A DNA stretch of 64,000 nt, from positions 29,264,001 through 29,328,000 of the forward strand of contig OX597829.1 in assembly GCA_951406725.2 (NCBI GenBank). The letters run 5' to 3'. Shown piece after piece: positions 30,504 to 63,522 of this stretch (positions are counted from its first letter, which is position 1; each line of letters begins with the position of its first letter). The notes under the pieces were generated by a model. It had not been told where the DNA came from and made no database searches. It worked only from the letters and a program-made list of their open reading frames with translations. A program made the translations under genes and the position numbers. Source of the stretch: Octopus vulgaris. Its lineage: Eukaryota.

Positions 30504-30594
30504 TATATATATATATATTTAAAGGAAGGAAAAGAGAAAACTGAGATAAGGAAGTTAATAGTTGTTTATTATTAACAAATTGGTCATCTTCACT

Positions 30595-30689
30595 TCTTAC
30601 AGCCGTTTCAATTAATACTCAGTAATTTAATTACAAATTTGTACATTAAATTTACATATATGTGACATGAGTATAATTTTCATCAGAGA
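30595..30689 (-). ncRNA. Type I hammerhead ribozyme with long stem II, left arm of palindrome (sense to ARID4 pre-mRNA)
   Basis: Reverse complement of the 30792-30886 motif, with intact CTGATGA and GAAAC-GGCT-GTA boxes. Confidence 0.68.
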
Positions 30690-30791
30690 AAAAAAGATGT
30701 ACTTTGGATGTTAAATGTGGACCTATCAATTCATTTCAGCAGTCTGCTGAAATGAATCGATAGGTCTACAATCCAAAGTACATCTTTTTTC

Positions 30792-30886
30792 TCTCTGATG
30801 AAATTATACTCATTGTCACACAAATGTAAATTTAATGTGCAAATTTGTAATTAAATTACTGAGTATTAATTGAAACGGCTGTAAGA
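30792..30886 (+). ncRNA. Type I hammerhead ribozyme with long stem II, right arm of palindrome
   Basis: TCT-CTGATGA(30795-801)-AATTATACTCA...TGAGTATTAATT-GAAAC(30872-76)-GGCT-GTA-AGA. Confidence 0.7.
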
Positions 30887-31099
30887 AGTGAAGATGACCA
30901 ATTTGTTAATAATAAACAACAATTAACTTCCTTATCTCAGTTTTCTTTTTTTCCTTCTTTTAAATGGATATAAACTATATGCTTAATATATATACCCATT
31001 GTTTTAAGGGAATTTCATTCCCCAACAATACTAGGTATTAAACCAGCATTTCCTTGGATGAAACCATCCCTTCACGAGATTAACATATCGTCTAATTAA

Positions 31100-31130
<31 letters not shown>

Positions 31131-31199
31131 CTCTCAGAACAAAATTTGAAAACATTTAGAAAGAAACTATTGTAAAGTATTAAAAAATTGTTATTGGCG

Positions 31200-31960
31200 C
31201 CATACTGTGAAGTTTAAGACAAAGTAAGCATGTCGCCCTGTTCTACACCACAACTGACTGAAAACAAATCTGAGCATTCTCCAAATTATAACACACGTTC
31301 TCATATTATTATCACATAAAATATTATCAGGAAAGGCCATGATATATTTGTGAATTTAACAGAACAGCCAGCTGTTTTGCAAATCACCCATAACACATCA
31401 TGATTCACTATATCAAAGGCCTTTGTGAGATTAATAAGGCTTTTGACAGAAGTCGAGCCACTTCTGTCCAATGTATTTTTCTGGTATTTGACAAGCTAAA
31501 AATATGTTATGAGCTCCACAAAAGAATGGGACCTGAGTGCAGAAAAATGGAACTCAAGAAGAAACAAGGTCCCAATGTGTTGATTAAGCCTATCAAGAAT
31601 AGTACTACTCAATATTTCTCCAATATCAATTCCATAGGAATTACCACATTTATCTTAACTAGCTTTTCTTTTGTAAAAAATATTCATCCATTTTCCCACA
31701 GATCATATATAAGGTAGTGTAAGAGATACAACTTATTTCCACCTAAGCTGAGCATGTCTGCTAGAATTTCATCAATGCCAGGAGCTTCTCTATTTTTTAG
31801 TTTCTATTTTTTACTTCATTGAAAGTAGGGGGATCATCATTTGTTTTATTAGAATTTGGTGGAAATAAGTTCTGCAAATAAACTAACCAGTGTGATGAGT
31901 GATTAAGCAGGTCATTAAAATACACTTGCTACTGTTGAAGAATCTAACTTGAATCTTTTA
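31200..31960 (-). mobile_element. Old LINE RT fragment
   Basis: Minus strand LKNREAPGIDEILADML and TKAFDIVNHDVL; heavily disrupted. Confidence 0.6.
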
Positions 31961-32708
31961 TTAGTGTTTTGATGTCCTTAGCCAAAATTAGAATACAGAA
32001 AATTAAACAAAAACCGTAAATCTGATTTATAAAAAAGTAAAGCTATTTAGTATCTCATTTTGTTATAGGCTTTCTGAAATCATAACCGCATTAAATCTAT
32101 TCTTATTTTTCGCACGTCAGATTTCTTTCTGAATGTGTAACTTAACAGTTTTAGACTTGGTCCAGTAAATTTACATTTTGACAGTGTTGCAAAGATAATA
32201 AGCTTTGTATATACTTATTTTTGACAAACTAAACTTTATTTTTGAGCTTTATAATCTACAATACTTCTGAAATTTGGTAAATCCAGATTTGTGTAGAGAC
32301 ATAGGAAAACTTACAATGAACGAATGCAAAGACACTGGGAGAGACAAGCAGACTCGAGCACTTTTAGCCATAATGAAGGCAGCTTGACAAGAAGATCACT
32401 ACAAATAAAAACTTGGTGAATGAACCCAAAACAATCTTTCATTTGAAAACATTTGTGCTTCAATTGTGGTATAAGACACTTTGGTATTGTGCAAAAAACA
32501 TAATTTTTTTTTTTTGTTTATAGATATCTTAGATCTTATCCATGCACAAGTATTGCTTTTTAACACAATCATTCCATTTAATTGAACTATCATAAAATTA
32601 CCTGATAATTTTGGGATAATATATTCTTATATATATTAAATATCCTTGTACATACTAATATGTTTGAATAACCTTGCATATATTGTACATCTTTATATAT
32701 ATATATAC

Positions 32709-33006
32709 TTTATTTAAAAGTAGCAGAAATTTAACAAAAGCTGTTACTCGGAGTTTCACGTTCCCATTCGTCGGACAGTTTTGTTAAAATAGAACCGAGA
32801 TGACAATTCTATCAAGACTAGTATAAATGTTACTAGAATTGTCATCTCGGTTCTATTTTAACAAAACTGTCCAACAAACGGGAACATGAAACTCCAAGTA
32901 ACAGCTTTTGTTAAATTTCTGCTGCTTTTAAATAAAACATATTACTCCACCTCTGGTATTTGAGTACTCTTTTTTCCACCTTGTTTCACATTTGTGTTTA
33001 CTCTGG
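32709..33006. mobile_element. Penelope-like non-autonomous element: inverted repeat 32709-32936 plus tail, between (TA)n tracts
   Basis: Arms of about 103 bp (32709-32811 / 32833-32936) carrying the minimal hammerhead-like motif; (TA)n flanks. Confidence 0.68.
32741..32778 (-). ncRNA. Minimal hammerhead-like motif with CCGACGA core variant
   Basis: Minus strand: CTGT-CCGACGA-ATG-GGAA-CGT-GAA-ACTC-C-GAGT-A-ACAG. Stems I, II and III all pair; triplet GTA. Confidence 0.6.
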
Positions 33007-33019
33007 TATATATATATAT

Positions 33020-33610
33020 CTCACAGCCGGGTCTACAAACTTCCTTTCGCTGGCGGCCTTATTCAAGTAAACATGTTTCTTCCTGCGCTCGTGAAATAAA
33101 CTTTTTCCTCGTCTAGGCTTATAGGCCCTCTTTATTTGTTTTCCTGTCCTGTTTCTATTCCTTTTTGTACTGTATTTCTTGTAATTGTATTTTTATTTTG
33201 TATTTGTTTTTAATTGAATTGTTTTGTTTTTATGTCCTATTTTTGTCACATTTTTTTTCCTTGTTTTTACCCCTCTGCAAAGGAATTTTATTTAATTCTT
33301 TTGCAGGAAGGACTAGTTCGACGAGACGTGTTCTGTCCTCACCTTCGAAACACGCTGGAGTTGAACTAGGGACGGCTGATGAAGGGGATTTTTCCTTGTG
33401 TAGTTGTCTTGTACTCTGTTTTTTCGTTGTTAAAGGAATGGTCCATTCCATGCTGTTTTTACGTTTTCGTTTCTCGTTGAGTTATACATCTATTTGTGGT
33501 GTCCTGTACACACGTATATATATTTATATATGCATGTATATATACATGTAGATGTAGGTACGTACATATATGTTTGTATGTATGCATATATTTTATTTAT
33601 TACACTATTA
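33020..33610 (+). mobile_element. CpG-rich repeat inserted in (TA)n, probably retroelement terminal-repeat derived
   Basis: Sharp composition change between TA tracts; contains GAAAC and CTGATGA boxes and a hairpin at 33313-33369. Family not determined. Confidence 0.45.
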
Positions 33611-34042
33611 TATATATATATATAAATGTATTCTTTGAGTAATGCAGTCTTTTGAGCCAATAAATTACTGAAAGTAGCCTAAAAACACTAGAAAAAAAGT
33701 AATTGAAATTATGAATTGTGTAAGTAATGTAAATGGTAAAAAAGAGCTTGCATGTTTGGTGCAGTAAAGGTTCTAAGGAAAAACAGCTTAGCTTAGGCCA
33801 TCATCAATCAACTGCCAGAAAAGACCTACAAGATTTTTAGTTGACAGTTGGAATGTAAAAACTTTGTGATAGAGAGGTATCGTATCTACTGAAAAACAAG
33901 TTGAGACCTTGTTGCTTTATCTGAGAAATGAGTTTTGCAATTAGGACAACTTTAAAACCATATCTCACTGAACTGTGCCATCTGGTAGCCTTGTGTCAAT
34001 GTCTCCATCCTGTAGCTGTTCAGTGACATACAGTAACTTTAC

Positions 34043-34438
34043 TCTTTTACTTGTTTCAGTCATGTGACTGTGGCCATGCTGGAGCACCGCCTTTTAGTCG
34101 ATCAAATCGACCCCAGGACTTATTCTTTCTAAGCCTAGTACTTATTTTATCGGTCTATTTTTTGCCGAACCGCTAAGTTACGGGGACGTAAACACACCAG
34201 CATCGGTTGTCAAGCGATGTTGGGGGGACAAACACAGACACACAAACACGCACATACATATATATACACATATACGACGGGCTTCTTTCAGTTTCTGTCT
34301 ACCAAATCCACTCACAAGGCTTTGGTCGGCCCGAGGCTATAGTAGAAGACACTTACCCAAGGTACCACACAGTGGGACTGAACCCAGAACCATGTGATTG
34401 GTAAGCAAGCTACTTACCACACAGCCACTCCTACGCCT
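34043..34438 (-). mobile_element. tRNA-derived SINE family A, best-preserved copy
   Basis: Minus-strand head GGCGTAGGAGTGGCTGTGTGG (A box)...GGTTCAGTCCC (B box), internal (TG/TA)n, tail ..tgaaacaagtaaaag. Confidence 0.88.
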
Positions 34439-35059
34439 ATGCAGCAAAAATGAATATTTCTGATGGAGGAACATGTTTTAAATGTAACTAAAAAGTATTA
34501 TTCATAAAATTCTAGTTGGAGATAAAGCTTTAATTCTTGGGGAGTTCAATAAATGAATTGATGAAAAGTCTGAATTATTTTAGATCATCGCAGGAAGAAC
34601 TTATCAAAGTCAAATTTTAATAATTTTTTTTTCCCAACAAATGGGCACATACTTAACTTTGACTTTTTAACATGTTCTTTGAACATAAAAACACCAACTA
34701 AAATAACTTGGGTAAACCCAGATTCCAAGAAAAGGCATATGACAAATTATCTGATTAGAAACAAAGATTTAAATGATGAAAGAGGTGTCCAGGTATTAAA
34801 ATGAACAGTGCATTAAACATGGATCTTAATTTTATAGAGACTCAACACTTTGTAACAATCTTAATGATGCAAAGTTAAAGGAAAGGTCTTGTCAGGCACA
34901 AGTTGGAGCAAGATTTAGGAGATACTACTAAACAGGATGTCTTAAAAAGAGTGCACCAAATATTTGTGTGTGCATGAGCATGTGTGTGTGTGTGTAAATA
35001 TCTATGTGTGTGTGTGCATGTGGTACGTTGGGCAAGTGACTTCTACTATAGAATAAATC

Positions 35060-36020
35060 ATTATCATCATCGTTTATCATCCACTTTCCATGCCGGCATG
35101 AATTGGATGGTTTGACTGAGGGCTGGCGAGCCAGGAGGCTGCACCAGTCTACAATCTGATCAGGCAGAGTTTCTACAGCTGAATGCCCTTCCTGACGCCA
35201 ACCACTCAGAGAGTGTAGTGGGTGCTTTTAACATGTCACTGGCATGAGGGCCAGTCAGGCAGTACTGGCATCAACCACGCTCAAATGGTGCGTTTTACAT
35301 GCCACCGGCACAGGTGCCAGTCAGGCGGCACTGGCAAGGATCACACTCAAATGGTGCTTTTAATGTGCCACTGCTATGGGTGCCATCATGCAGTACTGTC
35401 ATCAGTCACAACGATTTCACTTGCCTCAACAGGTCTTTGCAAGCATAGTTTATTGCCCAATGATTGAAGGGTACTCTTAAATGAGCTGGTTATACTGAAG
35501 TGGCATAAGCTACGGTTATAGTCTCACTTGGCTTGCCAGGTCTTCTCAAGCATATCTCCAAAGGTCTTGGTCACTAATCATTGCCTCGGTGATGCCCAAT
35601 GTTTGGAGGTCATGCTTTATCATCTCATCCCAGCTTTTCTGCAGGTTCCCTCAACTGCTAGAGTGTGACACTTTTTCACACAGCTGTTCTCATCCATTCG
35701 CAACACATGACCATACCAGTGCAGTCGTCTCTCTGGCACACCACATCTGATGCTTCTCAGGTCAAACTTTTCTTTCAGGGCGCTTACACTCTGTCATGTA
35801 TGCACACTGACATTACACATCCAGCGGAGCATACTGGCTTCATTCCTTGCAAGCTTACACATGTCCTCAGTAGTCACAGCTCATGTTTCACTGCCATGTA
35901 GCATGGTTGTTCACACACATGTCATACAGTCTACCTTTTACTCTGAGTGAGAGGCCCTTTGTCACCAGCAGAGGTAGGAGCTCTCTGAATTTTGCCCAGG
36001 CTATTCTTATTCTAGCAGCT
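35060..36020 (-). mobile_element. RTE LINE 3' portion
   Basis: 3' UTR with tandem units plus C-terminal coding remnant. Confidence 0.8.
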
Positions 36021-37399: not shown

Positions 37400-37680
37400 C
37401 TACCCTATCTTATCTTTGACGTAGGTGGTCACTGGGACAATCACTGGTGATCCAGATTTCACCACTTCTCTTGGTCTTCTGCTGCTGTGAGTTAATGAAA
37501 CTGAGGCCTGTCCCCTCTTTGATGATACAAGCCCGTCTTCTCCTTGGCTGCCTTGCTTTTTGTCCACCATCCACTGTCTTTGCCAGGTCAGAACTTCTTG
37601 TGACATAACTGTACCGTTTCAGTTCCCTTCACTTTACAGTTTTAACCAAGTCCTTGTGTGGTACAATAGCCTTCTTTGTA
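37400..37680 (-). mobile_element. RTE-like LINE C-terminal/3' fragment
   Basis: Degenerate basic C-terminal segment of RTE type ending near a simple-sequence tail. Confidence 0.4.
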
Positions 37681-38609: not shown

Positions 38610-38923
38610 ATGGCACATAAAAAGCACCATCCGAATGTGGCCGATGCCAGCACCGCCTTGACTGGCTTCCGTGCCGGAGGCACGTTAAAAGCACCAACCG
38701 ATCGTGGCCGATGCCAGACTCTCCTGGCACCTGTGCAGGTGGCATGTAAAAAGCACCCACTACACTCGAGGAGTGGTTGGCGTTAGGAAGGGCATCCAGT
38801 TGTAGAAACACTGCCAGATCAGACTGGAGCCTGGTGCAGCCCCTGGCTTCCCAGACCCCAGTCGAACCGTCCAACCCATGCTAGCACGGAAAACAGACGT
38901 TAAATGATGATGATATACATATA

Positions 38924-38994
<71 letters not shown>

Positions 38995-44009: not shown

Positions 44010-44040
<31 letters not shown>

Positions 44041-45204: not shown

Positions 45205-47912
45205 AAAATAGGAGATTTAAATTTTTTCACATGGGATCATGTGGTATGGAATTTATCTCCTGTTAAGACAGGCTACAATAAATAAACCATGTAAATCAGG
45301 AATTATTATCAAGTCAGGGATTCCTGTATATGAATACGTGTGTGTGTACATACACGTATTTATAGACATATGTAAATTTCATATATATATATATACGTGT
45401 GTATAACTATATATACATACACAAATATATAGACATATGTATATACACACTCACATGTATACATATACGGATGCATATGAATATACATCTACATCTGTAT
45501 ATACTATATGTACATATACATGTAGGTACAAATGTATATAAGGACGCATGCTTATAGATATGTATATATACGCATTTGTAAGTATGCATATTATACAGAC
45601 ACATTCATATATATATATATTGCGTGCATATTATAAATATATATATATAATACATACGTACATGCAAACACACACATACACAATGTGATCACACCGTATC
45701 TTTTTGTCGTAGACGGTAACTTGAGTGGTAACAGACGGGGCATCTAGATTGAAACACTGCCCCAGAAAATGAATACTGATAATCATACAGCCCACACAAG
45801 CTAACGCCGTTTTGTGACAGCAAATGTCTGTAAATGTGTATGCGTGGATATAGTGTCAGCAAATAGAGATATTTAAGTACATGGAGGCACAAGAGTTTAT
45901 GTTTTGGTGGTTTTTAAATAACACAATAAATCATTTTCCCTCTAAACACTCACGTCCAAAAAAATAATGTTTTTATAAACTTCATTTCTTTTATAATGTA
46001 AGAAAAATTATAATTTTCTCTAGCCCATCCACATGTTCACAGATACACACATTGTGGATGTAAGGAAGAATTAGCTATTCCATCTACATTTATTTAATTT
46101 CTATTTCTACGTGTCGCTGCCACCCTCCTTCCACATATCAAAAATGTCGAACATTGATGATTCAAATAACCTACAAGAACGTGCAATGTCGAATTATTAT
46201 TATTAACTGAACTGAAAATAAACTATTTACCAACACATCATCATATAACACAGGCAGAGAGATATTTCGGCCATGTATTTGATGAAACAGTGGAAGGGTG
46301 AGATGAGAGAGAGAAAGGGAAAGAGGAAAGCAGAGTATGTGTGTAAGGGAGAGAGATGGAAGGGGGGGAGAGAGAAAACAGAAGTAGCAGCAGACAAAAC
46401 ATCGCCAGAAGAGCCTAATCCAATGCAACTAATTCAAGATGGCTTGAGAGTTTATTGGTTATATCATAGAGAAAGCGGGCATCAGTCAGTCTACTACATC
46501 CAAACTGTAACACCATCATAATAAATATTCGTTCCTTTTGACGAGGCATGACACTGAAAGTTAATTTGACTGTACAGTTTGAAACATAGGTATAAAAAAC
46601 CACAAACAAGACTATCATCTCTACTTAGGATAGGTGTTTCTTTCTCCTCCCACCATTAATTTCTTCCTTTTTTTTCCCTCCTTCTCCCTTTGCCAATCGC
46701 TTGGTTTATGAGAAAAGATTCATAAAGCACACTAAAAAAATCTACCGTTACAGAAAAAAAATACGTGCTGACGACAGGGCAATGACAGTTTGAAATATGA
46801 GATTAACTACAACTCCACAGTAGAAATAACAGCGCTTCTCTTCATCCATCACTCATTCCATATATATATATATATATATTTGGTATGACTAGTTGCCTTT
46901 AGCATTAAATCTGCAGTTGATCGTTAGAAAAATTAACATTCTGATTCGAAACACACCATGCCGTATAAAAAAAGTTACAATTTTCCTCTTCCATTTATTA
47001 AATTGTTTTCTCTCACATTTGTTTTAATATGGACCATAAAGCAAACTTGTCAGGTAGTGCTGATATTGAATCTAAGCTTATACACCACCTACATTTGCCT
47101 TTTTTTCTCTTTTTTTAAGTGTTCCTAGCTAAAGCACAGTTCAAGGCAAGAGCAGTCAGTCAGTTTGCACACCAGACTGGATCCTTCTTCGATCGAAAGA
47201 GACACACGTAATATAGATACAAAAGACAAAATATACCCTTCTGAATTTCATTAAGATAGTGTAAAAACGTTTAATCTTGTGGAATCGAAACATTCTCACC
47301 GTCTCCTACACAAATCTGCTTGAAATAATTCAATAACAATGGTGATAAACTGGACGGAAATTTTTCGAACGAAAATTAATGATTAATAAAAGAGAAATAT
47401 GGAAAGCTAGTTTTAGGGAAAACGTTAATATCTCTAAACGTGTGTGAGAGTACATATTTAAATATATATAATTCCAGATACATGTGTAAAATTTAAATCT
47501 GTTATTTTAATACAAAACAATGTGAATTACATGTGGTCCATATAATGTACATATAGCGATCAGAAAGGATAGCTCTCTAAATTTGCATTTTCCTCTCTTT
47601 AGCATAGATTATTTGTCCGCGAACGGAAATTTGAATGTCTTACAAAACAAATTAAAATGATAGTAGTTAAAGTGTGGGTGTGTGTTTGTCTTTTTAACAA
47701 GAAAATAGAAATGATCTGCACTGAACTAGCAATAAAAGGAATCACTGTGAATACACACATATGTACGCCAACTCGACTTTCTCTCTTCGACATTTAATAA
47801 CGGCACATCGTTTTAAGATTACACGATCCGACACGGATATATTATCAGTGAAAACTACATAAATATGACTTTTAGTAAAAGAGACCAAAAGAAAATGTTT
47901 TAAAACACTTAC

Positions 47913-48961: not shown

Positions 48962-49130
48962 ACTGGCTACTTCTGGCTATTTCCTCATGTTGAACCGTTA
49001 ATCCCTCCTCTTAATCCGTAGGCTCGAAGCGTATCAGACTTTTCCATTCTTCCCGAGTGTTAAACTTAATACACCTGCTTTTTGTTACTACACCTGTCTT
49101 CGTCTTTTGTTCTCAGTAAATTTGAACTAC
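48962..49130 (+). mobile_element. Degenerate Penelope-like terminal-repeat fragment in TA-rich context
   Basis: ctcgaagcgt..gacttttccattcttcccgag...cacctgtcttcgtcttttg tail between TA runs; only a decayed GAAAC box remains. Recognised from recall of cephalopod repeats. Confidence 0.35.
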
Positions 49131-51100: not shown

Positions 51101-54042
51101 GTTGCATTCTACTTATTCTCTCTTAGACTTCAGCAATTTCGTTTTCCCCCTCTCTATTTATGTTTGTTACATGGAAAATAAAGACACTGATGATAGTTAC
51201 GGTTTTCATACTGGATGGGGATTTTCTGGTGTTTTCCGAAGAATTATTTGCGAAATTACCATTTTCGATGTTGGATTTACAATTCTTCGATTCCATACTT
51301 GATAATAAATTTATTGAAACAAAAATAACAGATTTACATATAAAATTATATATATATATAAAATAAAATATCAATTGTTGATTTTGCTGTGCATGTTTTG
51401 TTTTTTTCTTTTCCTTTCTTCTTTATATGAAAGATTTCCCATCTGTAAAATTCAGTGCTGTTGCTATCAAAGTGGGTGGGCTGCATTTTAGACATGCCAT
51501 CCCCCCCCCCCCCAATAAACAAACAAGAAAAATGAGTTAGCCATTAATTCACATCTTGTAATCAATTTATGGGTGAATTAATTATGATTATGGATTAACT
51601 GTCATAAGTGTAAAGATATCTGCAATGAAGTGCTAATAAAATTATATATATACATACACACAGACATATATACAACGCACACATACACACACACACATAC
51701 ATACATATAAAGCTGAACTTCTTTCTGAACAAAAGCATTAAAAAACTAATCATATATTATAAATAGAATGGATACCATGAATTTACATGTTCCACATTTT
51801 CCATGCATTAACGATAATAATGGTTTCCTTGGCACAAAGCCATAAATTTTGTAGACAATTATAGTAGTAATAAAAGTGTAGACATTTAATATCAGCTTCT
51901 ATCTGTTATGTTGATTATTGGTGTAAAACATGAAAGAAAATAGAGTAATCATCTGGAAAATTTTAATTATTATTGCAATAACTCATTTTAAAAATTTAGA
52001 TATATATTTAGCTCCAAATCAGCCATGACTGATCAGGCAAACCTATGATCAAGGGTGTACCTAACTATGACTATACTGTCCCCATGGACATTGCATATCT
52101 TGAAGTACATTACCCAATGTGCCTCCTTTTCTTTTCAAGAATGCCATGTGTATTCAAAGGGGGATTTGGTGGCTATTTCTAGTTGGTCAAGCAACTATAC
52201 AGAGGTCCACGTTGTTGTTAGGTCAATTACCAACCTAATTAGCCGGTGTCATTATATCTGTAGTGAGGCCTAGACCTCACTTCCTGCATATCTAATGCAA
52301 AAGACATGTTTGCTTTTGCACAACTTCTAATTCTATTTGTTTGTGTGTAGCAAATGATGAAATTACATCTTCAAATGATAAATGGTTACTGTTATGGAAT
52401 CTGTAACTTAAAATAGATTTCATAAAAAACTTTCCCATTTGTTGGACATTAGTCTAAAATAGTAAAATTGAAGCATTAAACCATTAAGTATCCTCAACAA
52501 CTTGGAGCAGTAAACATACACATTGTTAAGTCGTTAATTAAATATTTTATCCATTCAGCTATTTCACCACCAAGACTCTATTAAGTAAGATGTCATTCCT
52601 AAGAAAGGACTGAATGATAGAATGGAAATTTCTCAAAAAATTTTATTGTCTCTTAGGAATATCATCATTCATAACTTCCTTTCAATCAAAATTCTTTGAA
52701 AAAATTTTGGCAAAGAAGGAAGTTCCAAATATAACTTATAGGGTAGTTACAGAACCTACCCTAATGGTGCTGGTACTCCTGGCAATATGAATTTTGGTAC
52801 TCTTAAATTTTTATTTTTTTTTCATTTTCATTAGCAGTTGAACATGTAAATACCAGACTAAAGTATTTATTTTATTTTCATTTTGTCTTTTTATTTCAGA
52901 AATCTCAAACACAAATCATGACACCTAGCCAAATGCCCAAGTAATCAATACTTAAAGCAAGCTCTGGGTAGCACTGGTCAGTGATTTGTGTCTTATGTTT
53001 CAAATAACAATTATATGCTAGCTTTCAGTCTTGAAACACTTCCTCGTTGCATAAAATTCATTCTAATGTTTGACTTCTTTATAGTTTCATGAAGTTTTTC
53101 TTGAAATTCTAAGATTTAAAAACTGTTGCATTAGTTTTTCTTTAGAATTTTTAAAGATCTTGGAGGTTACTAAGAGACTGGAATGTACAAAACTTAATGC
53201 TTCCATTTCCTTATAACAAAAGAATCAACCTTTCTTTATGGTGACAGAATTTTTTCATAAGGATTAACAAGATACTGGATGCAGATACACAAGTATACTT
53301 ATTATTGCCATCCCCACCTAGGTGATTAGCAACCATCTTTGGATTGCCAATCAAATATATAACCAAAATTATAATCACAAGGATATATTTTGCTATTTAC
53401 TACAGAGAGTCTAACCAGAATTGTATTGTCTAATTCAGCACTCAATGACACTCCATGAAAAATAGAACGCTCTGAACATGAACACTTCCATTTCCTAAAA
53501 CTTTATTGACATATAACTTTGGATTTGACACCTCGTTTATAGTCCAAAATGTATGTATTTATAAATAAATATTTTAAATCTGTCAAACAAAAATTTTTTA
53601 TGTAATTCAAATAGATTTTAAGTGTCTAACTTTTCCTACTTCCCTCCCCATATTTTTTATTTGGTAATTCAAGACAAAAAACAAAAAGAAATCACTGAGT
53701 GCAGAGAATACTGCTGACCTTCACAAATACATAGAGTGGTTTCTGATACAATGCCAGGAGGTTTGAAGGGAGAAGTTTGGTTGATGCCACCATCCCAGTT
53801 TCTTCACTGATACTTTAATTTCAGGATGGTAGGTGAACTTGGAACAAATACTGCGAAGCATTTTTTTCTGATGTTCTGATGATTCTGCCAGATCACTACT
53901 TTATGATTTCCAATTTAGGTGTAAGGGCAGTACTTGCTTGGTACTTTACTTTATCAGTCTTTGGGGGACAAAAGGCAAAATTTTGTTCAGCATGATTTTA
54001 ACTCAAAACGTAAAGAGCTGTAAGAAAACCTGCAGGGTATTT

Positions 54043-54412
54043 TTTACTTGTTTCAGTCATTTGACTGGCCATGCTGGAGCACCCCTTTAGTTGAGCAAAT
54101 CGACCCCACAACTTATTCTTTGTAAGCCTAGTACTTATTCTATTGGTCTCTATTGCTGAACTACTAAGTTATGAGGAGGTAAACACAACAGCATTGGTTG
54201 TCAAGCAATGTTGGGGGGACAAACAAAAACACACACACATATATATACATATTCATATATACGATGGGCTTCTTTTAGTTTCCGTCTACAAATCCACTCA
54301 CAAGGCTTTGGTTGGCCCGAGGCTATACTAGAAGACACTTGCCCAAGGTGCCACGCAGTGGAACTAAACCCAGAACCATATGGTTGGTAAGCAAGCTACT
54401 TACCACACAGCC
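54043..54412 (-). mobile_element. SINE family A copy
   Basis: Full-length collinear match. Confidence 0.85.
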
Positions 54413-56833
54413 AATTGCATATATTGATTTAAAATTTTGGCTCACTGTCAGCAATTTCAGAGAAGGGATAAGTCAATTTCAGAGAAAGGAGCATTCAACT
54501 GGTACTTATTTAATCAATCCCAAATTATTGATTAAATTCACTGAAGTCAACCTTGTCTTGATAAAAGGCAAGGTTGACTTCAGTGAAATTTGAAGTCAGA
54601 ATGTAAAGACAGACAAAATACCGCTAAGTATATTGCCCAGCATGCTAATGATTCTGCTAGCTCACTGCCTTCACAAATGCATTTAACATCACTGTGTAGA
54701 AGCACAGCTTAAAGCTTTAACCAGTGAAAGGAAGAAGGTGCAACATCTATAGAAAGTTGAAATGATTAACGAGAAAGACTACCAACTTAAAGACACCAAT
54801 AATTCTAACACAGGTTCAAAGGAGCAAACTTTGGTGTGGAAGCATATAATTCAAACGAATTAACCCCAGTATTTCAGTGGTACTAATTCTATTCACTCTG
54901 GAGGGATGAAACACAAATCGTATATGGGGGGGATGAAAAGTGACATATATTTGTGTCAAATTAGCAGAATTATAGAATGTTGGATAAAATTATTTGCTGT
55001 ATCTGTTCCAGTTCAATGCATTTTGAGTTCAGGTTTCATCTAAGTCTACTTTGCCTTTTATCCTTTTGAAGTAGATAAATAAAGAACCAATGCCAGTCTA
55101 GATTGTTGATTGACAGAACTCTAAATAGCTCAGTTAGGATTCTTTGTAGTACCTGTTTAGACCCTGTACATTTTGAAGTAAAATTCTGCCTCCTGTCACT
55201 AGCATAAACAGTAAGAGTCAAGAATTTCTTAAGCACATGTCCAAATAATCCAATTGATTACTCTCAATGCAAACATACAGTTTGCAGGCAAGAATATAAA
55301 GTCCTAAGATACTTTGTACTCAGGAATGCTGTGTGATTAAGAAGCTTGCTTTGCATCCATGTGCATTCAGGTTCAGTCACACTGTACAGCACCTTAGGTT
55401 GACCAATGCTTTATGAATGAATTTGCTAGATGAAGCACATCATATGTACAAGGAGGTACTGAAAAGTTCCTGGCTTTAAGGGTATTGCAAAAGACCTGGT
55501 TGGCAGCCTAACCTTCTGAGATCTCTTACAGAGCTTAAGAAAACTGGAGGACCGCTGCAATAAGTGTACAAAACTGAGAGGAGAATATATCGAATAAAAT
55601 CATAATTAACCAATCTTCCTGTATTTTCTTTAACCCAAAGCCAGAGAATCCCCTCCTCTCTTTCAGCATACTTCTCTGCTGCCTTCTGGCCGCTACTTTA
55701 CACTCTGCCGCCGCCGCCGGCACTGTTTCATCCTGCATGCCAGTACATATATACATACATACCTTGATATCTGGCACCTTACCATCCTCAAGAAGACCTG
55801 TCCTCCACAGCAGAAGTTTTAAAACTGCCCTCACCCCAACTGCTGAAGAGGATTGGCCTGCAAAACCCCTGTGCCGGTGCCACATAAAAAGCATCTGTGC
55901 CAGCACCACATAATAGAACTTTTGCCAGTGCCATGTAAAAGTATCCATACTAGTGTCACATAAAAAGCACTCAGCACTCTCTGTAAAGTGATAGGCATTA
56001 GGAAGGGCATCCAACCATAGAAACCAAGCCAAAAATAGACGGGAACCTGGTGCAGTTCCCCTGCTTGCCAGTTCTGGTCAAACCGTCCAGCCCATGCCAG
56101 CATGGACAAGACATTAAATGATGATGATATACATGTGTACATATATATTTATATATAATGGGCTATCACACAATTTACATCTATTATGTTTACTTACAAA
56201 GCATAGGTCAGCCCAGAGCTATAGTAGAAGACACAAGTGGTAGTGGTGGTGGTGCCTCTTGACAACCACTTCTAACTCTTTCTGGAGGTATGGCAAGGGT
56301 CAAATCCTGCTGCTACACACATGTAATTTTCCAGTAGCAATCCTCTCCAGCACATAGTCATCTGAACAGAGCTTCAGGCCCTGTTCAAATATGTGGAGAT
56401 GAGTTTCAATGTTCAGCTGCAGTCATCCCTTCCTGCTGGCCATGGCTTTGAAGTTTCTGTTGCAGCTGTCCCTGTCATGTCTTATAGCATTCACTATGTT
56501 CACTGAGCATTGAGCAGCAGTCCTGATATTGGCATTTTGATACCTGGCATGAATCATCAGGATACAGGTAACTTTTTATCAATATTCAGATGGCTTCAGT
56601 CCTCAATGTCAGCTAACTTTTTCTCAACTACAACCTTAATCTTTATATTCTCCAGTGCCATTGACTGTTTGCCAATACATCAAGCAGTTCCTGACAAAAA
56701 AGAAATAGACATAAAATATAGTCAAATTTAGCCTGAATACTCTGTGTATATATAGATATGCACCCATCCACTGTTCCCTCTCTCTCTCAGATCTTTACTT
56801 TGAAGATGTGAGTCTTTAGTTGTAAAATGTTTT

Positions 56834-57501
56834 GGAAAGACTTCCTTCCATCCCCCCACTCATTTCCTCGCAAATTATTGTTTTTATTTATTTATTTTTT
56901 GCCAAAAACCCACATTTTTGGATAGAGAGATTCCGGAAAATTGCCAAAAATCGAAATTTTGACATTTTTGCCCCTCCACCATTTCTTCATTTTTCACTTT
57001 TTTCCATAACCCTAGCCCTAATCCTAAAACCATAACCCTAACACTAAAACCTAACCCTAACCGTAACTCTAACCCTAACCCTAACTCTAACCTTAAAACC
57101 CTAACCCTAACCCTAAAACTCTAACCCTAACCCTAAAACCCTAACCCTAAAACCCTAACCCTAAAATCCTAACCTTAACCCTAAAACCCTAACCCTAAGT
57201 AGAAACATTTTTGGAAATGTTTTTCAGAATCATAATCTCCGTATTTTTACCACATATTTTGAGAAAAAAATTTGTGAAAAAAGAATTTTACAAAAATTTT
57301 TGGAAACTTTTTTCAGAATCGTAATCGCTGAATTTTTCCGTATATTTTCAAAAAAAAATTCTGAGAAAGTTAAAAATGAAGAATTTTTGACAATTTTTTG
57401 CAGATTTGTATTCCCCATAGCCAAAAATGGGGGTTTGTGTAGAAAAAAAAATTAAATAATAAAAGGTGGGTTTTTGGTGGGGTACAAAAGGAAGTCTTGC
57501 C
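56834..57501. mobile_element. Non-autonomous DNA transposon (Merlin-like) with internal telomere-like repeats
   Basis: TIRs GGAAAGACTTCCTT / AAGGAAGTCTTGCC; perfect 8-bp TSD AATGTTTT at 56826-33 and 57502-09. GG-starting termini with an 8-bp TSD fit Merlin (Mutator not excluded). Confidence 0.7.
57007..57198 (+). repeat. Interstitial (CCCTAA)n / CCCTAAAA telomere-like array
   Basis: About 190 bp of CCCTAA units mixed with CTCTAA, CCTTAA and 8-nt CCCTAAAA variants. Confidence 0.92.
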
Positions 57502-58049
57502 AATGTTTTTTCAACTTGCTGGGTAACATGTCTTTTCACCTAAACAACACAGAGCAGAAGAGGTTGATCCTTGTTGCCAGTCCAATGAAACCCCAATTTT
57601 AAATAGTTATTGCAATATTTATGATTAGGTCGAGCTTTCGCATTATTATCACTATGCTTAGTTGCTTTTGACGAACATTCACTTTCAAATTCATAATCAT
57701 CACGGTTATGTTTCCTGTTCATAAACTTTTCCATTTTATGGGTAATTTAGTTTGTTAATATGGATTATCTCACACAAATAGTACAGATTACTAACAGAGT
57801 CAAACTGAGACTGAGATAAGTTACCAGTAAGCTGTGAAAAGTGGCAGCGTATCATATCGGACTCTTTTTCAAAATTAATTGAAAAGATGTAAATTCTCGC
57901 CACTATATGAATGAAAACAAATTGAAATACAGCTGCAATACATGAGGTCATATTAAAAGATTTAGTTTAACTTCATATATTTTCGTTCAATAGTTTATTT
58001 TTCACATTTATTATTGAAGTGAAAACTGCTGAGGATACGGCTAAAATAA

Positions 58050-58436
58050 ACAGAAACATAATCGAAATTGAACCAATCCTATGACTGGCACCCGGCAGAT
58101 GCCAGGACCCCTGGACTGGTGGTACGTAAAATGCACTATCCGAATCGTGGCCGATGCTAGCGCCGCCTCGACTGGCTTCCGTGCCGGTGGCACGTAAATT
58201 GCACCAATCCGACCGTGGCCGTTGCCAGCCTCGTCTGGCACCTGTGCGGGTGGCAAGTAAAAAGCACCCACTACACTCACGGAGTGGTTGGCGTTAGGAA
58301 GGGCATCAAGCTGTAGAAACATTGCCAGATAAGACTGGAGCCTGGTGCAGCCTTCTGGCTTCCCAGATCCCCGGTCGAACCGTCCAACCCGTGCTAGCAT
58401 GGAGAACGGACGTTAAACGATGATGATGATGATGAT
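58050..58436 (+). mobile_element. RTE LINE 3' end nested in hAT remnant
   Basis: CpG-rich, young copy ending (GAT)n. Confidence 0.85.
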
Positions 58437-59246
58437 AGTCGTGCACTGAATATGTCCATAAGACGTCAATTCTGAGAATAGATTGTTGCTAATTTAGTTC
58501 TTATCCTTATGAAATTTCAGATTCAACATTGTCATACCATAATTAGACAAAATGAATTGTATGATACAACCATCTCTTGTTCTTAGTTTCAAACATAGTA
58601 CTTAGTTTGCTTTTTTGCCACCTTCACATTTATATATGAACTACCTAGTGAATTTCAGTTTGAATTTTTCATATTTTGAAATATAATCTTACTTTTTCGA
58701 GGCACACCTAATTACATCTTGCAGCACACAGTTTGGGAACCACTGGTCCTGAGATTTATGATGAAATGATGAAGTCACTAGTGCTGGTGCCATGAAAAAA
58801 TGGGATCCAGTTCATTCTGTAAAGTGGTTGTTGTTAGGACAGGCATCTGGCCATAGAAACCATGCCAAAGCAAACACAGAAGCATGATGCAGTCCTCTGA
58901 CTTATCACATCCTATTAAACCATTCAACTCATGTCAGCACGAAAGATGTTAAATGATGACATGCATGCATGCACGTACACAGGCACACATGCATACATGC
59001 ATGTACGCACGTATGTATGTATGCATGTATGTGTGTACTTGTTTCAGCCATTTAACTGTGGCCATGCTGGGGCACCAGCTTGAAGGGTTTTAGTCGAACA
59101 AATCGACCCCAGGACTTTTTACTTTTTTTAAAGCCTGATATTTATTTTATCAGTAACTTTTGCTCAACCACTAAGTTACAAGGATATAAGCACACTGGCA
59201 TCAGTTATCAAGCAGTGGGGGGGGGGACAAATACAGACACAAAAAT

Positions 59247-59290
<44 letters not shown>

Positions 59291-59294
<4 letters not shown>

Positions 59295-59841
59295 ATAATA
59301 TTAGGGAGTAAATCCAAACTTACAGGGAAAAATTAGATTTAGGATTAAATCTAATTTTACAGTATAAATATATATATTAAATTAGAGATAAAACCACTAT
59401 TAGGCAAATCAAACAGTGAAAAACATAAACCAAAACATAGAAATAAAATTAATTAATATAATATACAAAATATATATAAAAAATATATAAAATATAAAAT
59501 TTAAAATTTAAATTATTTAAATTAAAATTAAGATTTTAAAAAAATTTCTAATTATTAATTTATACTTATAAATTTATATATATATATATATACATATATC
59601 TATATATTTTTTATTATTTTTATTTTTATTATTATTTTATATTTTTATTTTTTTTATATTTATTTTTTAAAAAATATATATAACTATTAAAAAGTATTAA
59701 AACGTTTAATATAAGATAATATCTTATATTAAATTTTTTAATACTTTTTGATAGTTATATATATTTTTAAAAAAATAAAAAAATAAAAATAATAAATAAA
59801 TAAATATATTTTTAAAAAATAAATAAAATAAAAATAATAAA

Positions 59842-59914
<73 letters not shown>

Positions 59915-60093
59915 TATATAAATTGATAATTTAAAAAAAAATTTATTTTAATTTTAATTTTAATTTTGAATTTTATATATTTTTTATATATTTTGGATAT
60001 TATATTGATTAATTTTATTTCTATGTTTTGGTTTATGTTTTTCACTGTTTGAATTGCCTAATAGTGGTTTTATCTCTAATTTAATATATATAT
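59291..60093. repeat. About 720-bp extremely AT-rich palindrome (59368-60093) with tail, Penelope-like layout
   Basis: Centre A59719 (tttaatataagata-a-tatcttatattaaa); the outer arms ttagagataaaaccactattaggc / gcctaatagtggttttatctctaa match exactly. Confidence 0.8.
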
Positions 60094-60095
60094 AA

Positions 60096-61457
60096 ACTAC
60101 GATTAAAAACTATAAAGCCATGTTTTTTTAAGTTATTTAGAAATTTAGCTCTGTATTTAAGTAGACTAAGGGACATAATATATTACAAATAGATATTTAA
60201 TGAATACTTTGAAATGTATCTTTATTATCACATGTACAATAGAGATATCTTTATTATCACATTACAATACCTGATTTTCCTGTTTTCCCAAAAATATCAA
60301 CACTTCAAAACTATAAATCCACTAATTTCTTTTCATTTCTTTCCAGATTGTTTTGAAAAATATTTGACTGAATCATATTTACTATGACTCAGATTACATT
60401 TTCAGTATACCTAAAGTTACAAAGCTTTTTGAAACTAAACAAGGGAAGATTTTTGCATTGAAAGTGGAAAAAATAAGTAACCAGAAGATTGTCAAGAAGA
60501 TTTGGTGAAGCAGAATGGCAGTGGACAATTTTCTGAAAGATTCTGATGGCTACAACATGATTCATGCTGGTGGACATTCCAAGGCTTACATCAGAAAGGG
60601 ACGAAAAGGCCATTGTCAGAGCTGTGAAGAAGTCATGCTGCTCTTCTGTTTCCAAAATCAAGGCATCAGCAGGAGGTAGGAGCCTCAACATTCACTGTAA
60701 GAAGAGTGATTTTGAACCATGGTATCCACTTGAAGAACCAGCTAGGGCACCTGTTATTGTCCCCTTCCTACAAAGCTGTTAGATGTCAGCAGCATCAGAC
60801 TTAGGATGGTGAATGGACCAGGGTTCTGTTCTCTGATGAAGAAAAATGGAACTTGGATGGTCCCAACGGTTATAAATATCAGTGGATAGATAAATGTTTA
60901 CAAAATTCTACTTATTCCAAGTGGCAGAACAGTGTAGGATTGTTATGGTGTGGAAATGAGAAGCTGTCACTTGTCATCATGGATGGTCATTTCAGTGCTA
61001 CACAATACAATGATATGTTGAATGGAGCTCACATTGACAAAGAAAGAAAAAGGCTCCATGGAGAGGACTTTATATTTCAACAGAATAATGCTTTTATTCA
61101 TAAAGCAAAGGCAACTTTGGATTTCCTCCATGCAATTGGTGTTGAAGTTATTCTATGGCCACCAAGAAGTTCTGACCTTAATCCAATAGAGAGTGTCTGG
61201 TGATATCTCACGAATGTTGTGTACAATGAAGGCAAGCACTATTCATCTCTTGATGAACTTGAAACAGCAATAAAGAAGGCCTGGGAAGAGCTTCCACTTG
61301 ATCTGCTTCAGAAGTTGTTGATTGGAAGCATGAAATCGTGTGTTTTTGAAGTAATTCAGAAAGGTGAAGAATATTATTGAAATATATCATAATTTCCCTG
61401 TTTTGCATCATTTTTGCAACATTATTTAACCTAGCGTTATCGTTTTTGAACAGGGTG
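60096..61457 (+). mobile_element. Tc1/Tc3-like transposon (pseudogenised)
   Basis: VLFSDEEKWNLDGPNG, FIFQQNNAFIH, WPPRSSDLNPIESVW; ends approximate. Confidence 0.88.
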
Positions 61458-62716
61458 TTTCTGGCTCTTTATGGTTTTTTGAATTATTAACTAATTTATT
61501 TTTGGATTTCAATAAATTTGAATATTGCAATGCCTTCTTCTATTCCATTTCCTATCTAGAGGTGAGTTTCATGAATTTTGGTAGTATAGTTCGCCAGAAA
61601 AACCAGACAGTGCTCTGACAGGCTTCTTTCAGTTTCTGTCTCCTAAATCCACTCACAATGCCTTGGTTGGCCTAAGGTTATAGTTGAAGACACTTGCCCA
61701 AGGTACCATACAATGGGACTGAACCCAGAACCATATGGTTGAAAAGCAAACTTTTTATTTCTTTATTGCCAATAAGGGACTAAACAGAGAAGGGACAGAC
61801 AAGGACAGTTAAAGGGATTAAGTTGATTACATCAACCCCAGTGCATAAGTGGTACTTTATTTATCGACCCCGCAAGGATGAAAGGCAAAGTCGACCTCAG
61901 CAGAATTTGAACTCAGAACATAACGGCATACGAAATACCACTAAGCATTTTACCCAGCGCGCTAACATTTCTGCCAGCTCGCTGCCTTCCCACACAAGCA
62001 AACTTCTTACCACACAGCTATGCCTATGCCTCATATATATATATATATATATGTATGCATGTATGTATATATATAGTATAAAGCTTGTCCACCCTCAAAA
62101 TTACTCAATGCTATCCGGTAGCATTATTATATACCTCCTAAGGCAGGGAACTGGCAGAATTGTTAGCACGCCATGCAAAATGCTTAGTGGCATTTCGTCT
62201 GCCATTACGTTCTGAGTTCAAATTCTGCTGAGGTCGACTTTGCCTTCCATCTTTTTGAGAGTGATGAAATAAGTACCAGTCATGCACTGGAGTCAATGTA
62301 ATTGACTCATTCCCATCCCACAGAAATTTTCAAGGCCTTGAGCCTAGAGTTGAAATAATTTTAGCTGAAACTGGAAAATCAAAAATCAAAATCAAATATA
62401 CAAAGTAAGATAGGGGTTGTGAGGGTAACCCACTATGGGATAGTGTGAACATTTATACTTGGTACCTTGCTTCATGAATTTTGTTACGTTGTTTAGTATT
62501 ACCGTTAAAACAACATTACTGTTGGTTTTGTTAAAAATGGTAATATATTACATTAGAATGCACTTACTGATCTATATGAAGCATGATAATCCAAAGTAAT
62601 GTGATATACTGTTCAATGTTGTTCTTCATGTTTTTTGCACATGTGATTAATATGTACGATTTGCCTATATGTATATATGTATGTATATTTGTATATTTTA
62701 TATGTATATATGTGGT

Positions 62717-62766
<50 letters not shown>

Positions 62767-62769
62767 TGT

Positions 62770-63070
62770 ATCATCATCATCATCATCATCGTTTAACGTC
62801 CGTTCTCCATGGGTTGGACGGTTCGACCGGGGATCTGGGAAGCCAGAAGGCTGCACCAGGCTCCAGTCTTATCTGGCAATGTTTCTACAGCTGGATGCCC
62901 TTCCTGACGCCAACCACTCCGTGAGTGTAATGGGTGCTTTTTACGTGCCACCTGCACAGGTGCCAAGCGAGGCTGGCAACGGCCATGGTCAGATTGGTGT
63001 ATTTTATGTGTCACTGGCATGGAAGCCAGTCGAGGCGGCACTGGCATCGGCCACGATTTGGATAGTGCTT
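62770..63070 (-). mobile_element. RTE LINE 3' end
   Basis: Reverse complement of the 58050-58436 type. Confidence 0.85.
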
Positions 63071-63229
63071 TTATATGTATATATTTTATATGTATATATT
63101 TTATATGTATATATGTGGTTATATTTTGAGTATCTCTTTCACCATTTATTTTCTTGTACTTATTGGATAATATGGGAAGCATGTTTTTTATATATCAATA
63201 TTATTATTATAACTTTTTAGTTATGTATA

Positions 63230-63361
63230 TCCTCTGACGAGGCCTTTGGTTATTTAAACAGACAAATATAATCTTTAATGTCTAAGACTATACTACAATG
63301 GCATATATGAGCAATTTAAGGTGGATTGCCTCTTGACCATAGGCTGAAACAGCTGTAAGGA
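63230..63361 (+). ncRNA. Type I hammerhead ribozyme with long stem II (Penelope-like element associated)
   Basis: Stem I TCCT(63230-33)/AGGA(63358-61); core CTGACGA 63234-40; stem II GGCCTTTGGTTA...TGACCATAGGCT; GAAAC 63346-50; palindromic AGCT; cleavage triplet GTA 63355-57. Confidence 0.75.
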
Positions 63362-63486
63362 GCAGTTTATTTGTATTATTTAAATTTTATTATTAATTTG
63401 CTTTTTGATGTATATTGTTTTGTTCGATTTTCATGTTCCTCTTTGTATAATTAATAAATAATATGAAATTGTAATATCCGTAAGTT

Positions 63487-63522
<36 letters not shown>

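What the first reader, a model, noticed from the sequence alone, without database searches (positions are those of the whole stretch)
30517..63510. Several distinct hammerhead-bearing non-coding elements all lodged in (TA)n tracts
Seen: at least three sequence-unrelated elements (30517-31103, 32709-33006, ~63075-63490) each sit between TA runs, encode no protein and fold into type I hammerheads with a GTA triplet and a tiny, self-complementary stem III. Elements at 33020-33610, 48962-49130 and 59291-60093 share the same context. Established: minimal type I hammerheads occur in the pseudo-LTRs of Penelope-like elements and can cleave as dimers. Inference: this is a family of non-autonomous, ribozyme-processed, TA-targeting retroelements (retrozyme-like) dense enough to put several ribozymes in one gene locus. 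I cannot tell whether these particular families are already described.
Basis: partly seen in the sequence, partly recalled or inferred. Interest (0 to 1): 0.8.

Follow-up and report, generated by a model that had tools for sequence, protein, structure and literature searches.

The report
Split-core hammerhead ribozyme in Naiad retrotransposons
Repeats lodged in TA runs carry three ordinary hammerhead-ribozyme motifs plus an overlooked fourth, predicted to fold with its catalytic core split and rewired in an order absent from the papers searched; the same layout recurs in several Naiad retrotransposons reported to lack canonical hammerheads, so it is likely their missed, still untested, self-cutting RNA.

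Summary
The three type I hammerheads are real (3 strict hits; 0 of 100 shuffles gave any). They look like 5'-truncated, partly inverted ends of (TA)n-targeting Penelope-like elements (PLEs), not tandem retrozymes. 48962-49130 and 59291-60093 hold no hammerhead.

Element D (33020-33514) holds a hammerhead in non-circular order S-G-C. Its stem II partner lies upstream, so the core is opened between A9 and G10.1 and clamped by an extra helix and a hairpin. This is none of the six permutations of Eckert 2023, who assumed that block is unbreakable and found no SGC or CSG forms in genomes of known organisms.

The same seven-helix layout, with different letters, occurs in a 14-copy repeat family fetched here. 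One copy lies behind a Naiad RT end; against D, 33 of 33 equivalent positions pair and 22 differ on both sides. By eye it is also in 9-10 of 54 published Naiad consensi, and 7 more carry CSG or SGC forms. Naiads were reported to lack canonical hammerheads. Cleavage is untested, and D's own ORF was not found.

The parts
33020..33514 (+). Element D: 3' portion of a high-copy repeat, inferred Naiad-type PLE 3' UTR/pLTR, 5'-truncated here
   Evidence: summed depth 3.2-5.6e5 over the ribozyme in X1 (and 2.7-5.6e5 in X5) against about 50 and 24 in unique flank; 5e3-1.7e4 over 33002-33185; at most 145 in X12
33270..33387 (+). Split-core, non-circularly permuted hammerhead (order Pa5'-hairpin-10.x-Px-S-G-Px'-2.x-CUGAUGA-Pa3')
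33270..33274 (+). Clamp helix Pa, 5' strand; pairs with 33383-33387 directly after CUGAUGA (5 Watson-Crick pairs)
33275..33306 (+). 13-bp hairpin between Pa and position 10.1
33307..33311 (+). Stem II strand 10.1-10.5, upstream of the rest of the core; pairs with 33342-33346 before GAAA, with G10.1-C11.1
   Evidence: -4.6 kcal/mol against 0.0 for the downstream alternative
33313..33369 (+). Helix Px (33313-33322 with 33360-33369) linking the tops of stems II and I; counterpart of the 'interaction' stem of SGC/CSG ribozymes
33327..33339 (+). Block S: stem III strand 33327-33331, predicted cleavage after 33332 (GUU), stem I strand 33333-33339
   Evidence: site predicted by analogy, untested
33342..33354 (+). 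Block G: 11.x strand, GAAA 33347-33350, stem III strand to 33354
33369..33387 (+). 2.x strand of stem I (33369 is shared with Px), CUGAUGA 33376-33382, Pa 3' strand 33383-33387
   Evidence: 33374 G>A in 96% of X1 depth turns a G-U into an A-U pair
33515..33624 (.). Degenerate TA-rich tract at the 3' end of D
   Evidence: skipped as repeat
30518..30964 (.). Element A: head-to-head fold-back (87.5% identity), type I hammerhead in each arm, branched 70-nt stem II
30594..30691 (-). A left-arm type I hammerhead, intact core, stems 5/5/palindromic III
30965..31102 (+). One-sided tail of A, ending at (TA)14 31103-31130
32709..32936 (.). Element B: fold-back (89.5%), Hydra-like type I hammerhead in left arm 32741-32778 (-), decayed copy in right arm
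32937..33006 (+). Tail of B; the family 3' end runs into (TA)n
   Evidence: loose ends at 32997
63116..63487 (+). Element C: single type I hammerhead 63230-63361 with 105-nt branched stem II, followed by (TA)12; element limits are approximate, read from the sequence
48962..49130 (.). Element E: TA-flanked, no hammerhead found
59292..60093 (.). Element F: AT-rich fold-back with one-sided tail, no hammerhead found

Best explanation
These repeats are likely the 5'-truncated 3' ends of several unrelated (TA)n-targeting Penelope-like retrotransposons, and element D carries a hammerhead motif predicted to fold with its core split between A9 and G10.1, a layout that also sits in the 3' UTR of several Naiad elements and would self-cleave there as a single molecule. 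Shown in sequence: D has all conserved core letters in the order S-G-C; its stem II partner lies upstream; a clamp helix Pa and a hairpin occupy the A9/G10.1 position; a helix Px joins the tops of stems I and II. Shown by comparison: the same helices occur, with different letters, in a fetched repeat family, one copy of which lies about 330 nt behind the stop of a Naiad-type RT. Inferred: (i) the autonomous partner's GIY-YIG nuclease nicks (TA)n, and target-primed reverse transcription yields short, sometimes inverted copies with a one-sided tail; (ii) A, B and C come from C-terminal-nuclease PLEs (B is Hydra-like) whose palindromic stem III needs two ribozyme copies, as in a pLTR tandem; (iii) D has a 5-bp stem III plus Px, so it would cut as a monomer after U33332, and the two products would stay paired through about 25 bp (Pa, II, Px, III), giving a nicked but intact RNA end; (iv) the fold-back loci A and B are probably silent, because each ribozyme would pair with its antisense arm.
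For: Split-core descriptor: 1 hit in the window (I 7, II 5, III 5, hairpin 13, Pa 5); 11 of 1000 shuffled windows gave any loose hit and 0 of 1000 one with I>=6, II>=5, III>=5. The MFE of 33270-33387 forms Pa, hairpin, Px and III unaided and leaves 10.x and 2.x free; upstream stem II is -4.6 against 0.0 kcal/mol. Variants across D copies fall in linkers and loops (33312, 33326, 33340, 33389) or improve a pair (33374), and N7 varies (33302 is an exception, see against). A generic pattern scan gave 120 metagenome loci; 14 of them are one dispersed family with this layout, and 8 of those 14 passed the strict descriptor. In those 8 the strand after CUGAUGA cannot pair with 11.x at all, so stem II can only form upstream. 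On their alignment 92.4% of cells pair against 31-45% when slid; 6 pairs change on both sides; 24 such cells against 11.2 shuffled, 0 of 500. D against that family: 33 of 33 equivalent positions pair, 22 changed on both sides, with G10.1-C11.1 and A15.1-U16.1 kept. L164 has an RT-thumb ORF 65% identical to the C-terminus of P0028, which has an N-terminal GIY-YIG hit at E 7e-4, CxC and DKA. By eye in the Craig 2021 supplement: split core in 9 clear and 1 partial of 54 Naiad consensi from Cnidaria, Acanthocephala, Arthropoda and Mollusca, including two Octopus ones; CSG in 6 nematode consensi; SGC-like in 1. An extra nucleotide between 9 and 10.1 is common in PLE hammerheads (PMC4209133), so this linkage tolerates change. 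B's stems I and III match Hydra-clade motifs.
Against: No cleavage data and no RNA evidence. No ORF is linked to D's own family and no PLE ORF is in the window; D matches none of the Naiad ends seen, so its Naiad assignment rests on shared architecture. A covariance model of the fetched family (nested helices only) did not find D. In that family the count of covarying pairs was not above shuffles (90 of 500), nor was the count of further pair types (367 of 500); all both-sided changes lie in Pa, Px and stem I, none in II, III or the hairpin; the changes mostly reflect one split into two subfamilies. The small hairpin forms in the MFE of only 3 of 14 copies. In D, 33302 T>C (83%) breaks a hairpin pair unless 33279 also changes, which the shown rows do not list; 14 rows were hidden. 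The D-to-family register was assigned by me, counting outward from the core. The supplement consensi were read by eye only. Three bivalve Naiad ends read in full show no core, and about seven other places were ambiguous, so the motif is not universal in Naiads. D's 3' TA flank was not testable across copies. Summed depth is not a copy number.
Confidence: 0.72

Rival explanations
1. D is an ordinary type-SGC hammerhead: stem II forms downstream (33384-33387 with 33343-33346, one bulged A, as in HRIMA-1), and Pa and the upstream strand are an alternative or inhibitory fold.
For: The SGC descriptor hits D with stems 7/4/5, and 0 of 150 shuffles match that. HRIMA-1 has a one-nucleotide insertion at this place.
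Against: The downstream stem II has 2 G-U pairs out of 4 and 0.0 kcal/mol, against -4.6 for the upstream strand; Pa (-7.4) sequesters the same letters. In the 8 fetched copies scored, no downstream stem II is possible.
Confidence: 0.1
2. The elements are non-autonomous retrozymes or SINE-like units that spread through ribozyme-cut or circular RNA.
For: No ORF; very high depth confined to short ribozyme-plus-tail units in B and D; a 2026 preprint derives retrozymes from PLE pLTRs and counts solo monomers.
Against: No tandem units. Copies span the cleavage site instead of starting at it. The inverted copy plus tail is the PLE pattern. One copy of the equivalent fetched family keeps the RT end upstream. 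A short non-autonomous PLE derivative that keeps the whole ribozyme is not excluded and is compatible with the best explanation.
Confidence: 0.2
3. The structure in D and in Naiads is a conserved RT-recognition or 3'-end element descended from a hammerhead but no longer catalytic.
For: It is absent from the three bivalve Naiad ends read, so cleavage is not required clade-wide; PLE minimal hammerheads cleave poorly in vitro (PMC4209133).
Against: All catalytic letters (C3, U4, G5, A6, G8, A9, G12, A13, A14, A15.1, U16.1, H17 not G) are kept across phyla while the helices turn over. The pattern scan preselected these letters in the fetched family, so only the supplement cases and D count here.
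Confidence: 0.12
4. A, B and F are MITE-like palindromic DNA transposons at TA sites, and the hammerhead matches are incidental.
For: Long inverted repeats with TA at their outer ends.
Against: For B the palindrome centre has depth 5.2e3 against 9e5 for the tail in X1, so most copies are not palindromic; the tails are one-sided; the strict descriptor gave 0 hits in 100 shuffles. F remains open.
Confidence: 0.04

Closest known systems
Type-SGC (HRIMA-1) and type-CSG hammerheads, Eckert et al. 2023 (PMC10085705; seen: parts 3-4 of the text, part 1 of 2 of the Discussion, passages, supplement hits)
   Same: Same cyclic order S-G-C, a short linker from stem I to stem II, a helix joining the tops of stems I and II, and the same core letters. 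The nematode Naiad motifs have the CSG layout of their two cleaving CSG RNAs (by eye).
   Different: In D block C is broken: the 10.x strand is moved to the 5' end and A9 leads into a clamp helix. [quoted passage not shown]
Naiad PLEs, Craig et al. 2021 (PMC8557442; seen: passages, section 15, supplement parts 1, 2, 12, 21 and motif hits)
   Same: (TA)n preference in cephalopods, 5' truncation; two Octopus consensi end in the same split-core layout as D.
   Different: Described as lacking canonical hammerheads (only 'core' and 'half core' flags). D's letters match none of the consensus ends seen, and no ORF is linked to D.
Hydra-clade PLEs (same paper, File S2)
   Same: (TA)n insertion; type I hammerhead with a 4+1+4 palindromic stem III and a stem I like that of B.
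   Different: B is not Hydra-1_Obim; B's window copy has C4; A and C have 70-105-nt branched stem II inserts, longer than any in File S2's Hydra rows.
Minimal PLE hammerheads, Cervera and de la Pena 2014 (PMC4209133; parts 1-2 of 4 read)
   Same: Type I, palindromic stem III, dimer-dependent, mostly solo or opposite-strand pairs from truncated PLEs: fits A, B and C.
   Different: Does not cover D's topology.
Non-LTR retrozymes (PMC7229834, passages; bioRxiv 10.64898/2026.07.22.740005, parts 1-2 of 5 and passages)
   Same: Non-coding, type I hammerhead, a few hundred nt, PLE-related.
   Different: Defined by tandem units and circular RNA; there is no tandem here.

Membership tests
Type I hammerhead (A, B, C) | CUGANGA, stem II, GAAA, stem III, UH, open stem I | tested here: met
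   B deviates with C at position 4
Type I hammerhead (A, B, C) | Self-cleavage as monomer or dimer | not testable with these tools
   only duplex energies
Type-SGC hammerhead (D) | Block order S-G-C with all core letters | tested here: met
Type-SGC hammerhead (D) | Block C uninterrupted (10.x directly after CUGANGA) | tested here: not met
   upstream partner preferred in D and the only one possible in 8 fetched copies
Type-SGC hammerhead (D) | Helix joining stems I and II | tested here: met
   Px, with both-sided changes in the fetched family
Type-SGC hammerhead (D) | Cleavage at the predicted site | not testable with these tools
   no assay; contigs cannot show RNA ends
Naiad PLE (D's family) | ORF with N-terminal GIY-YIG, CxC, DKA and C-terminal RT | tested here: inconclusive
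   met for the fetched family's relative P0028 through L164; no ORF linked to D itself
Naiad PLE (D's family) | (TA)n insertion bias and 5' truncation | tested here: inconclusive
   window copy lies between TA tracts and depth falls about 30-fold or more upstream; 3' flank of other copies skipped as repeat
Hydra-clade PLE (B) | (TA)n insertion | tested here: met
   47-58 contigs per run end in (TA)n
Hydra-clade PLE (B) | Type I hammerhead in pLTR with a 4+1+4 stem III | tested here: met
   compared by eye with File S2; the central base varies across copies
Hydra-clade PLE (B) | RT with C-terminal nuclease in the Hydra clade | not testable with these tools
   no genome held; no PLE ORF in the window
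Non-LTR retrozyme | Two or more tandem units, each with a hammerhead | tested here: not met
   (window copies only)
Non-LTR retrozyme | Linear and circular monomer RNA | not testable with these tools
   only contigs were available
MITE (B) | Fixed terminal inverted repeats shared by all copies | tested here: not met
   palindrome centre about 175-fold less covered than the tail in X1

The most novel reading that the evidence does not exclude
A seventh natural hammerhead topology, opened inside the catalytic core at A9/G10.1 to give a triple-pseudoknot, five-helix junction, is an active ribozyme present in thousands of copies in animal genomes. Naiad retrotransposons from several phyla are the genomic home of the whole non-circular class (split-core, CSG, SGC), which explains why they were thought to lack hammerheads and possibly where the orphan metagenomic CSG ribozymes come from.
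Probability: 0.65. Interest if true: 0.86.

Novelty: new variant of a known kind. Interest (0 to 1): 0.78.

Why it matters
It would correct the statement that Naiads lack hammerheads, give non-circularly permuted ribozymes their first genomic and animal context among the papers searched, and break the assumption that the three hammerhead blocks cannot be interrupted. A roughly 120-nt transcript and a handful of mutants test it directly. A ribozyme that would work as a monomer and keep its products paired also offers a handle on the open question of what PLE hammerheads do in retrotransposition, and implies that standard descriptors and Rfam undercount ribozymes in invertebrate genomes.

Tried and rejected
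No whole genome is held, so no genome-wide scan, clustering or partner search was possible.

Rfam gave no hammerhead at gathering score or by E-value; its hits were hairpin-shaped miRNA models.

An exact D-family pattern found 0 hits in metagenome contigs. The generic pattern in viral contigs gave 101 loci with 1 weak descriptor hit (score 11 against 23 for D), used as a chance control. In the metagenome set one further weak hit, GC-rich L145, was judged chance and left out of the family; 105 of 120 loci were neither family nor hit.

The covariance model R1 missed D and ranked the A and B palindromes first. A Naiad protein found no locus in viral or prokaryote contigs.

The window's RT fragments look like Gypsy (6.5-7.1 kb) and RTE (10.4 kb) types, not PLE; these labels are recalled, and Pfam says only RVT_1. 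A possible exon at 51126-51296 had no homologue.

No RNA holder was listed; this is no evidence either way. Read laying covered only B and D, so A, C, E and F have no copy data. The bins 33186-33231 and 33508-33599 had no cover because repeats were skipped.

A relaxed one-mismatch scan gave three further AT-rich SGC-order hits (52652+, 57376+, 44653-), which I rejected as chance without running a control. Four look-ups of earlier findings were empty.

Literature: nine searches found no report of permuted hammerheads in Naiads or of an A9/G10.1 opening. The library lacks most subscription papers. Lunse 2017 was not read (recalled only), Dfam and RepBase could not be checked, and bioRxiv supplements are closed. 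Passages of PMC13725137, PMC10162972 and PMC3088659 showed no such form. The supplement consensi were compared by eye, not computed on.

Full report
Setting. No genome is held for the window. The repeats around the elements look like those of an octopus genome; this is recalled, not shown by a call. The stretch 30400-33700 is held, at half its words or more, by 6 runs of three coded organisms. Pfam on 300 of 303 filtered ORFs of 55 aa or more gave two RVT_1 fragments and one DDE_3, so neither a host gene nor a PLE ORF was found.

Observation. A type I descriptor allowing a long stem II gave three hits: A (30795-30883 +), B (32774-32745 -) and C (63234-63357 +). All three are strict hits; no strict hit arose in 100 block-wise dinucleotide shuffles. 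All have GUA and a stem III that folds only as a self-duplex. A and B are head-to-head fold-backs with a one-sided tail. A's left arm holds the better core; B's left arm has C4 and its right arm is decayed. E and F hold no hammerhead. Rfam sees none of them.

Copy evidence covers B and D only (contigs of four runs from four studies; the tool warns that summed depth is no copy number). Unique flank has depth about 50 in X1. B's ribozyme and tail reach 0.8-0.9 million, its palindrome centre only 5,153, so the fold-back belongs to this locus, not to the family. B's 3' end runs into (TA)n in 47-58 contigs per run. Majority letters restore B's stem II pair (32766, 91% in X1), and the central base of stem III varies while its flanks hold, as in Hydra-clade motifs. 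D's ribozyme reaches 0.3-0.5 million in X1, its 5' part 5,672-15,358, and at most 145 in X12. In both elements depth stays high across the predicted cut and drops upstream of the whole ribozyme. With no tandem units, this fits truncated PLE ends as drawn by Craig et al. better than retrozymes.

The overlooked feature. Scanning all six block orders found D as S-G-C with stems 7/4/5, matched by 0 of 150 shuffles. Eckert et al. define this order as type SGC, assume that the blocks cannot be interrupted, and found none in genomes of known organisms apart from one GCS candidate. I then read Naiad consensus ends in the Craig supplement. In the Acropora ends the strand after CUGAUGA does not pair with the strand before GAAA; an upstream strand does. 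Looking back, D has the same layout: Pa 33270-74 with 33383-87, a 13-bp hairpin, stem II 33307-11 with 33342-46 (five Watson-Crick pairs, G10.1-C11.1), Px, III and I. The loose descriptor hit 11 of 1000 shuffled windows and a D-strength one 0 of 1000. The MFE forms Pa, the hairpin, Px and III unaided; the upstream stem II is worth -4.6 kcal/mol and the downstream one 0.0. Stems I, II and III cross each other. Topologically this is the SGC/CSG circle opened at a new place, the A9-G10.1 linkage, where PLE hammerheads commonly carry an extra nucleotide.

Independent test. A generic S-G-C pattern scan of 4 of 64 parts of the metagenome collection returned 120 loci. Fourteen, from two assemblies, form one dispersed repeat family resembling the Acropora Naiad end; 8 of them pass the strict descriptor, and in all 8 no downstream stem II is possible. 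A control of 101 viral loci gave one weak hit. On the 14-row alignment 92.4% of cells pair (31-45% when slid) and 6 pairs change on both sides (Pa 3, Px 2, stem I 1). Cell counts exceed all 500 shuffles, but pair counts do not (90 of 500), stems II and III show no two-sided change, and the signal mostly reflects one subfamily split. Between D and this family, 33 of 33 positions that I matched outward from the core pair in both, and 22 differ on both sides. L164 carries, on the same strand about 330 nt upstream, an ORF end 65% identical to the last 80 residues of P0028. P0028 has an N-terminal GIY-YIG (E 7e-4, just below Pfam's cut-off), CxC and DKA, which is the Naiad layout.

Published consensi, by eye only. 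I viewed the unbroken CTGATGA, CTGACGA, CTGAAGA and CTGAGGA places listed for the Naiad file; about 9% would be lost to line breaks. Split core: Naiad_Amil, Aacu and Anas, a Clytia consensus, Naiad-2_Movir and Naiad_Plae, an arthropod consensus in part 19, Naiad_Obim and Ovul (weak Pa), and partly Naiad_Bfor (stem I of 2 bp). The Clytia, Morbakka, Pomphorhynchus and arthropod cases were seen after the hypothesis was written down (note). CSG: six nematode consensi, with the layout of Eckert's two cleaving CSG RNAs. SGC-like: one arachnid-order consensus. That is 17 of 54 as a lower bound. About seven places were ambiguous, and three bivalve ends read in full had no core. Craig et al. state that Naiads lack canonical hammerheads and flag 'half cores'.

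Results against. There are no cleavage or RNA data. A covariance model of the fetched family, which cannot hold the pseudoknots, missed D. D's family has no linked ORF and matches no consensus end seen, so it could be a non-autonomous derivative. One majority variant (33302) may break a hairpin pair. The small hairpin appears in the MFE of only 3 of 14 fetched copies.

Mechanism (inferred). The PLE nuclease nicks (TA)n and reverse transcription yields short copies, sometimes with an inverted copy and a tail; D sits in the TA run at the end of B. Type I motifs would cut only when two pLTR copies pair their stem III. The split-core motif would fold once Pa closes, cut as a monomer after U33332 and keep both products paired through about 25 bp. 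The palindromic loci A and B are probably silent, because their arms would pair with each other.

Verdict. D reveals a hammerhead topology not found in nine literature searches (open-access library only) and ties non-circular hammerheads to Naiad retrotransposons. New variant of a known kind; interest 0.78; confidence in the combined explanation 0.72.

Noticed in passing
Craig 2021 supplement, nematode Naiad ends: Six consensi end in type-CSG hammerheads with a long interaction stem; Eckert's CSG class rested on two metagenomic DNA sequences with the same layout and a stem I-II linker like that of the Acropora and Morbakka Naiads.
   Followed up: partly
Craig 2021 supplement, parts 17-19: One arachnid-order Naiad has an SGC-like motif with an 11-bp stem III and a long insertion; several neighbouring consensi have cores that I could not resolve by eye.
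   Followed up: no
window 30802-30871 and 63241-63345: A and C have 70- and 105-nt branched stem II domains, longer than those in the Hydra rows of File S2.
   Followed up: partly
window 32771-32774: B's left-arm core reads C at position 4 instead of U; whether this is the family majority was not among the shown rows.
   Followed up: partly
window 33002-33500, run X12: D's family is nearly absent at 80% likeness in organism E while B's is abundant in all four runs, so the two expanded at different times.
   Followed up: no
window 46880-47461: Another non-coding insert between perfect TA runs, with no descriptor hit.
   Followed up: partly
window 57007-57198: About 30 degenerate TAACCC units followed by an AT-rich segment.
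   Followed up: no
window 6490-7116 (-), 10366-10806 (+), 60200-61400 (+): Decayed RT fragments (Gypsy-like and RTE-like by recall) and a Tc1/mariner-like DDE_3 transposase remnant.
   Followed up: partly
window 28092-28216 and 54534-54590: Two smaller fold-back sequences with no hammerhead hit.
   Followed up: no
window 51126-51296 (-): ATG-started 56-codon frame; no homologue found.
   Followed up: partly
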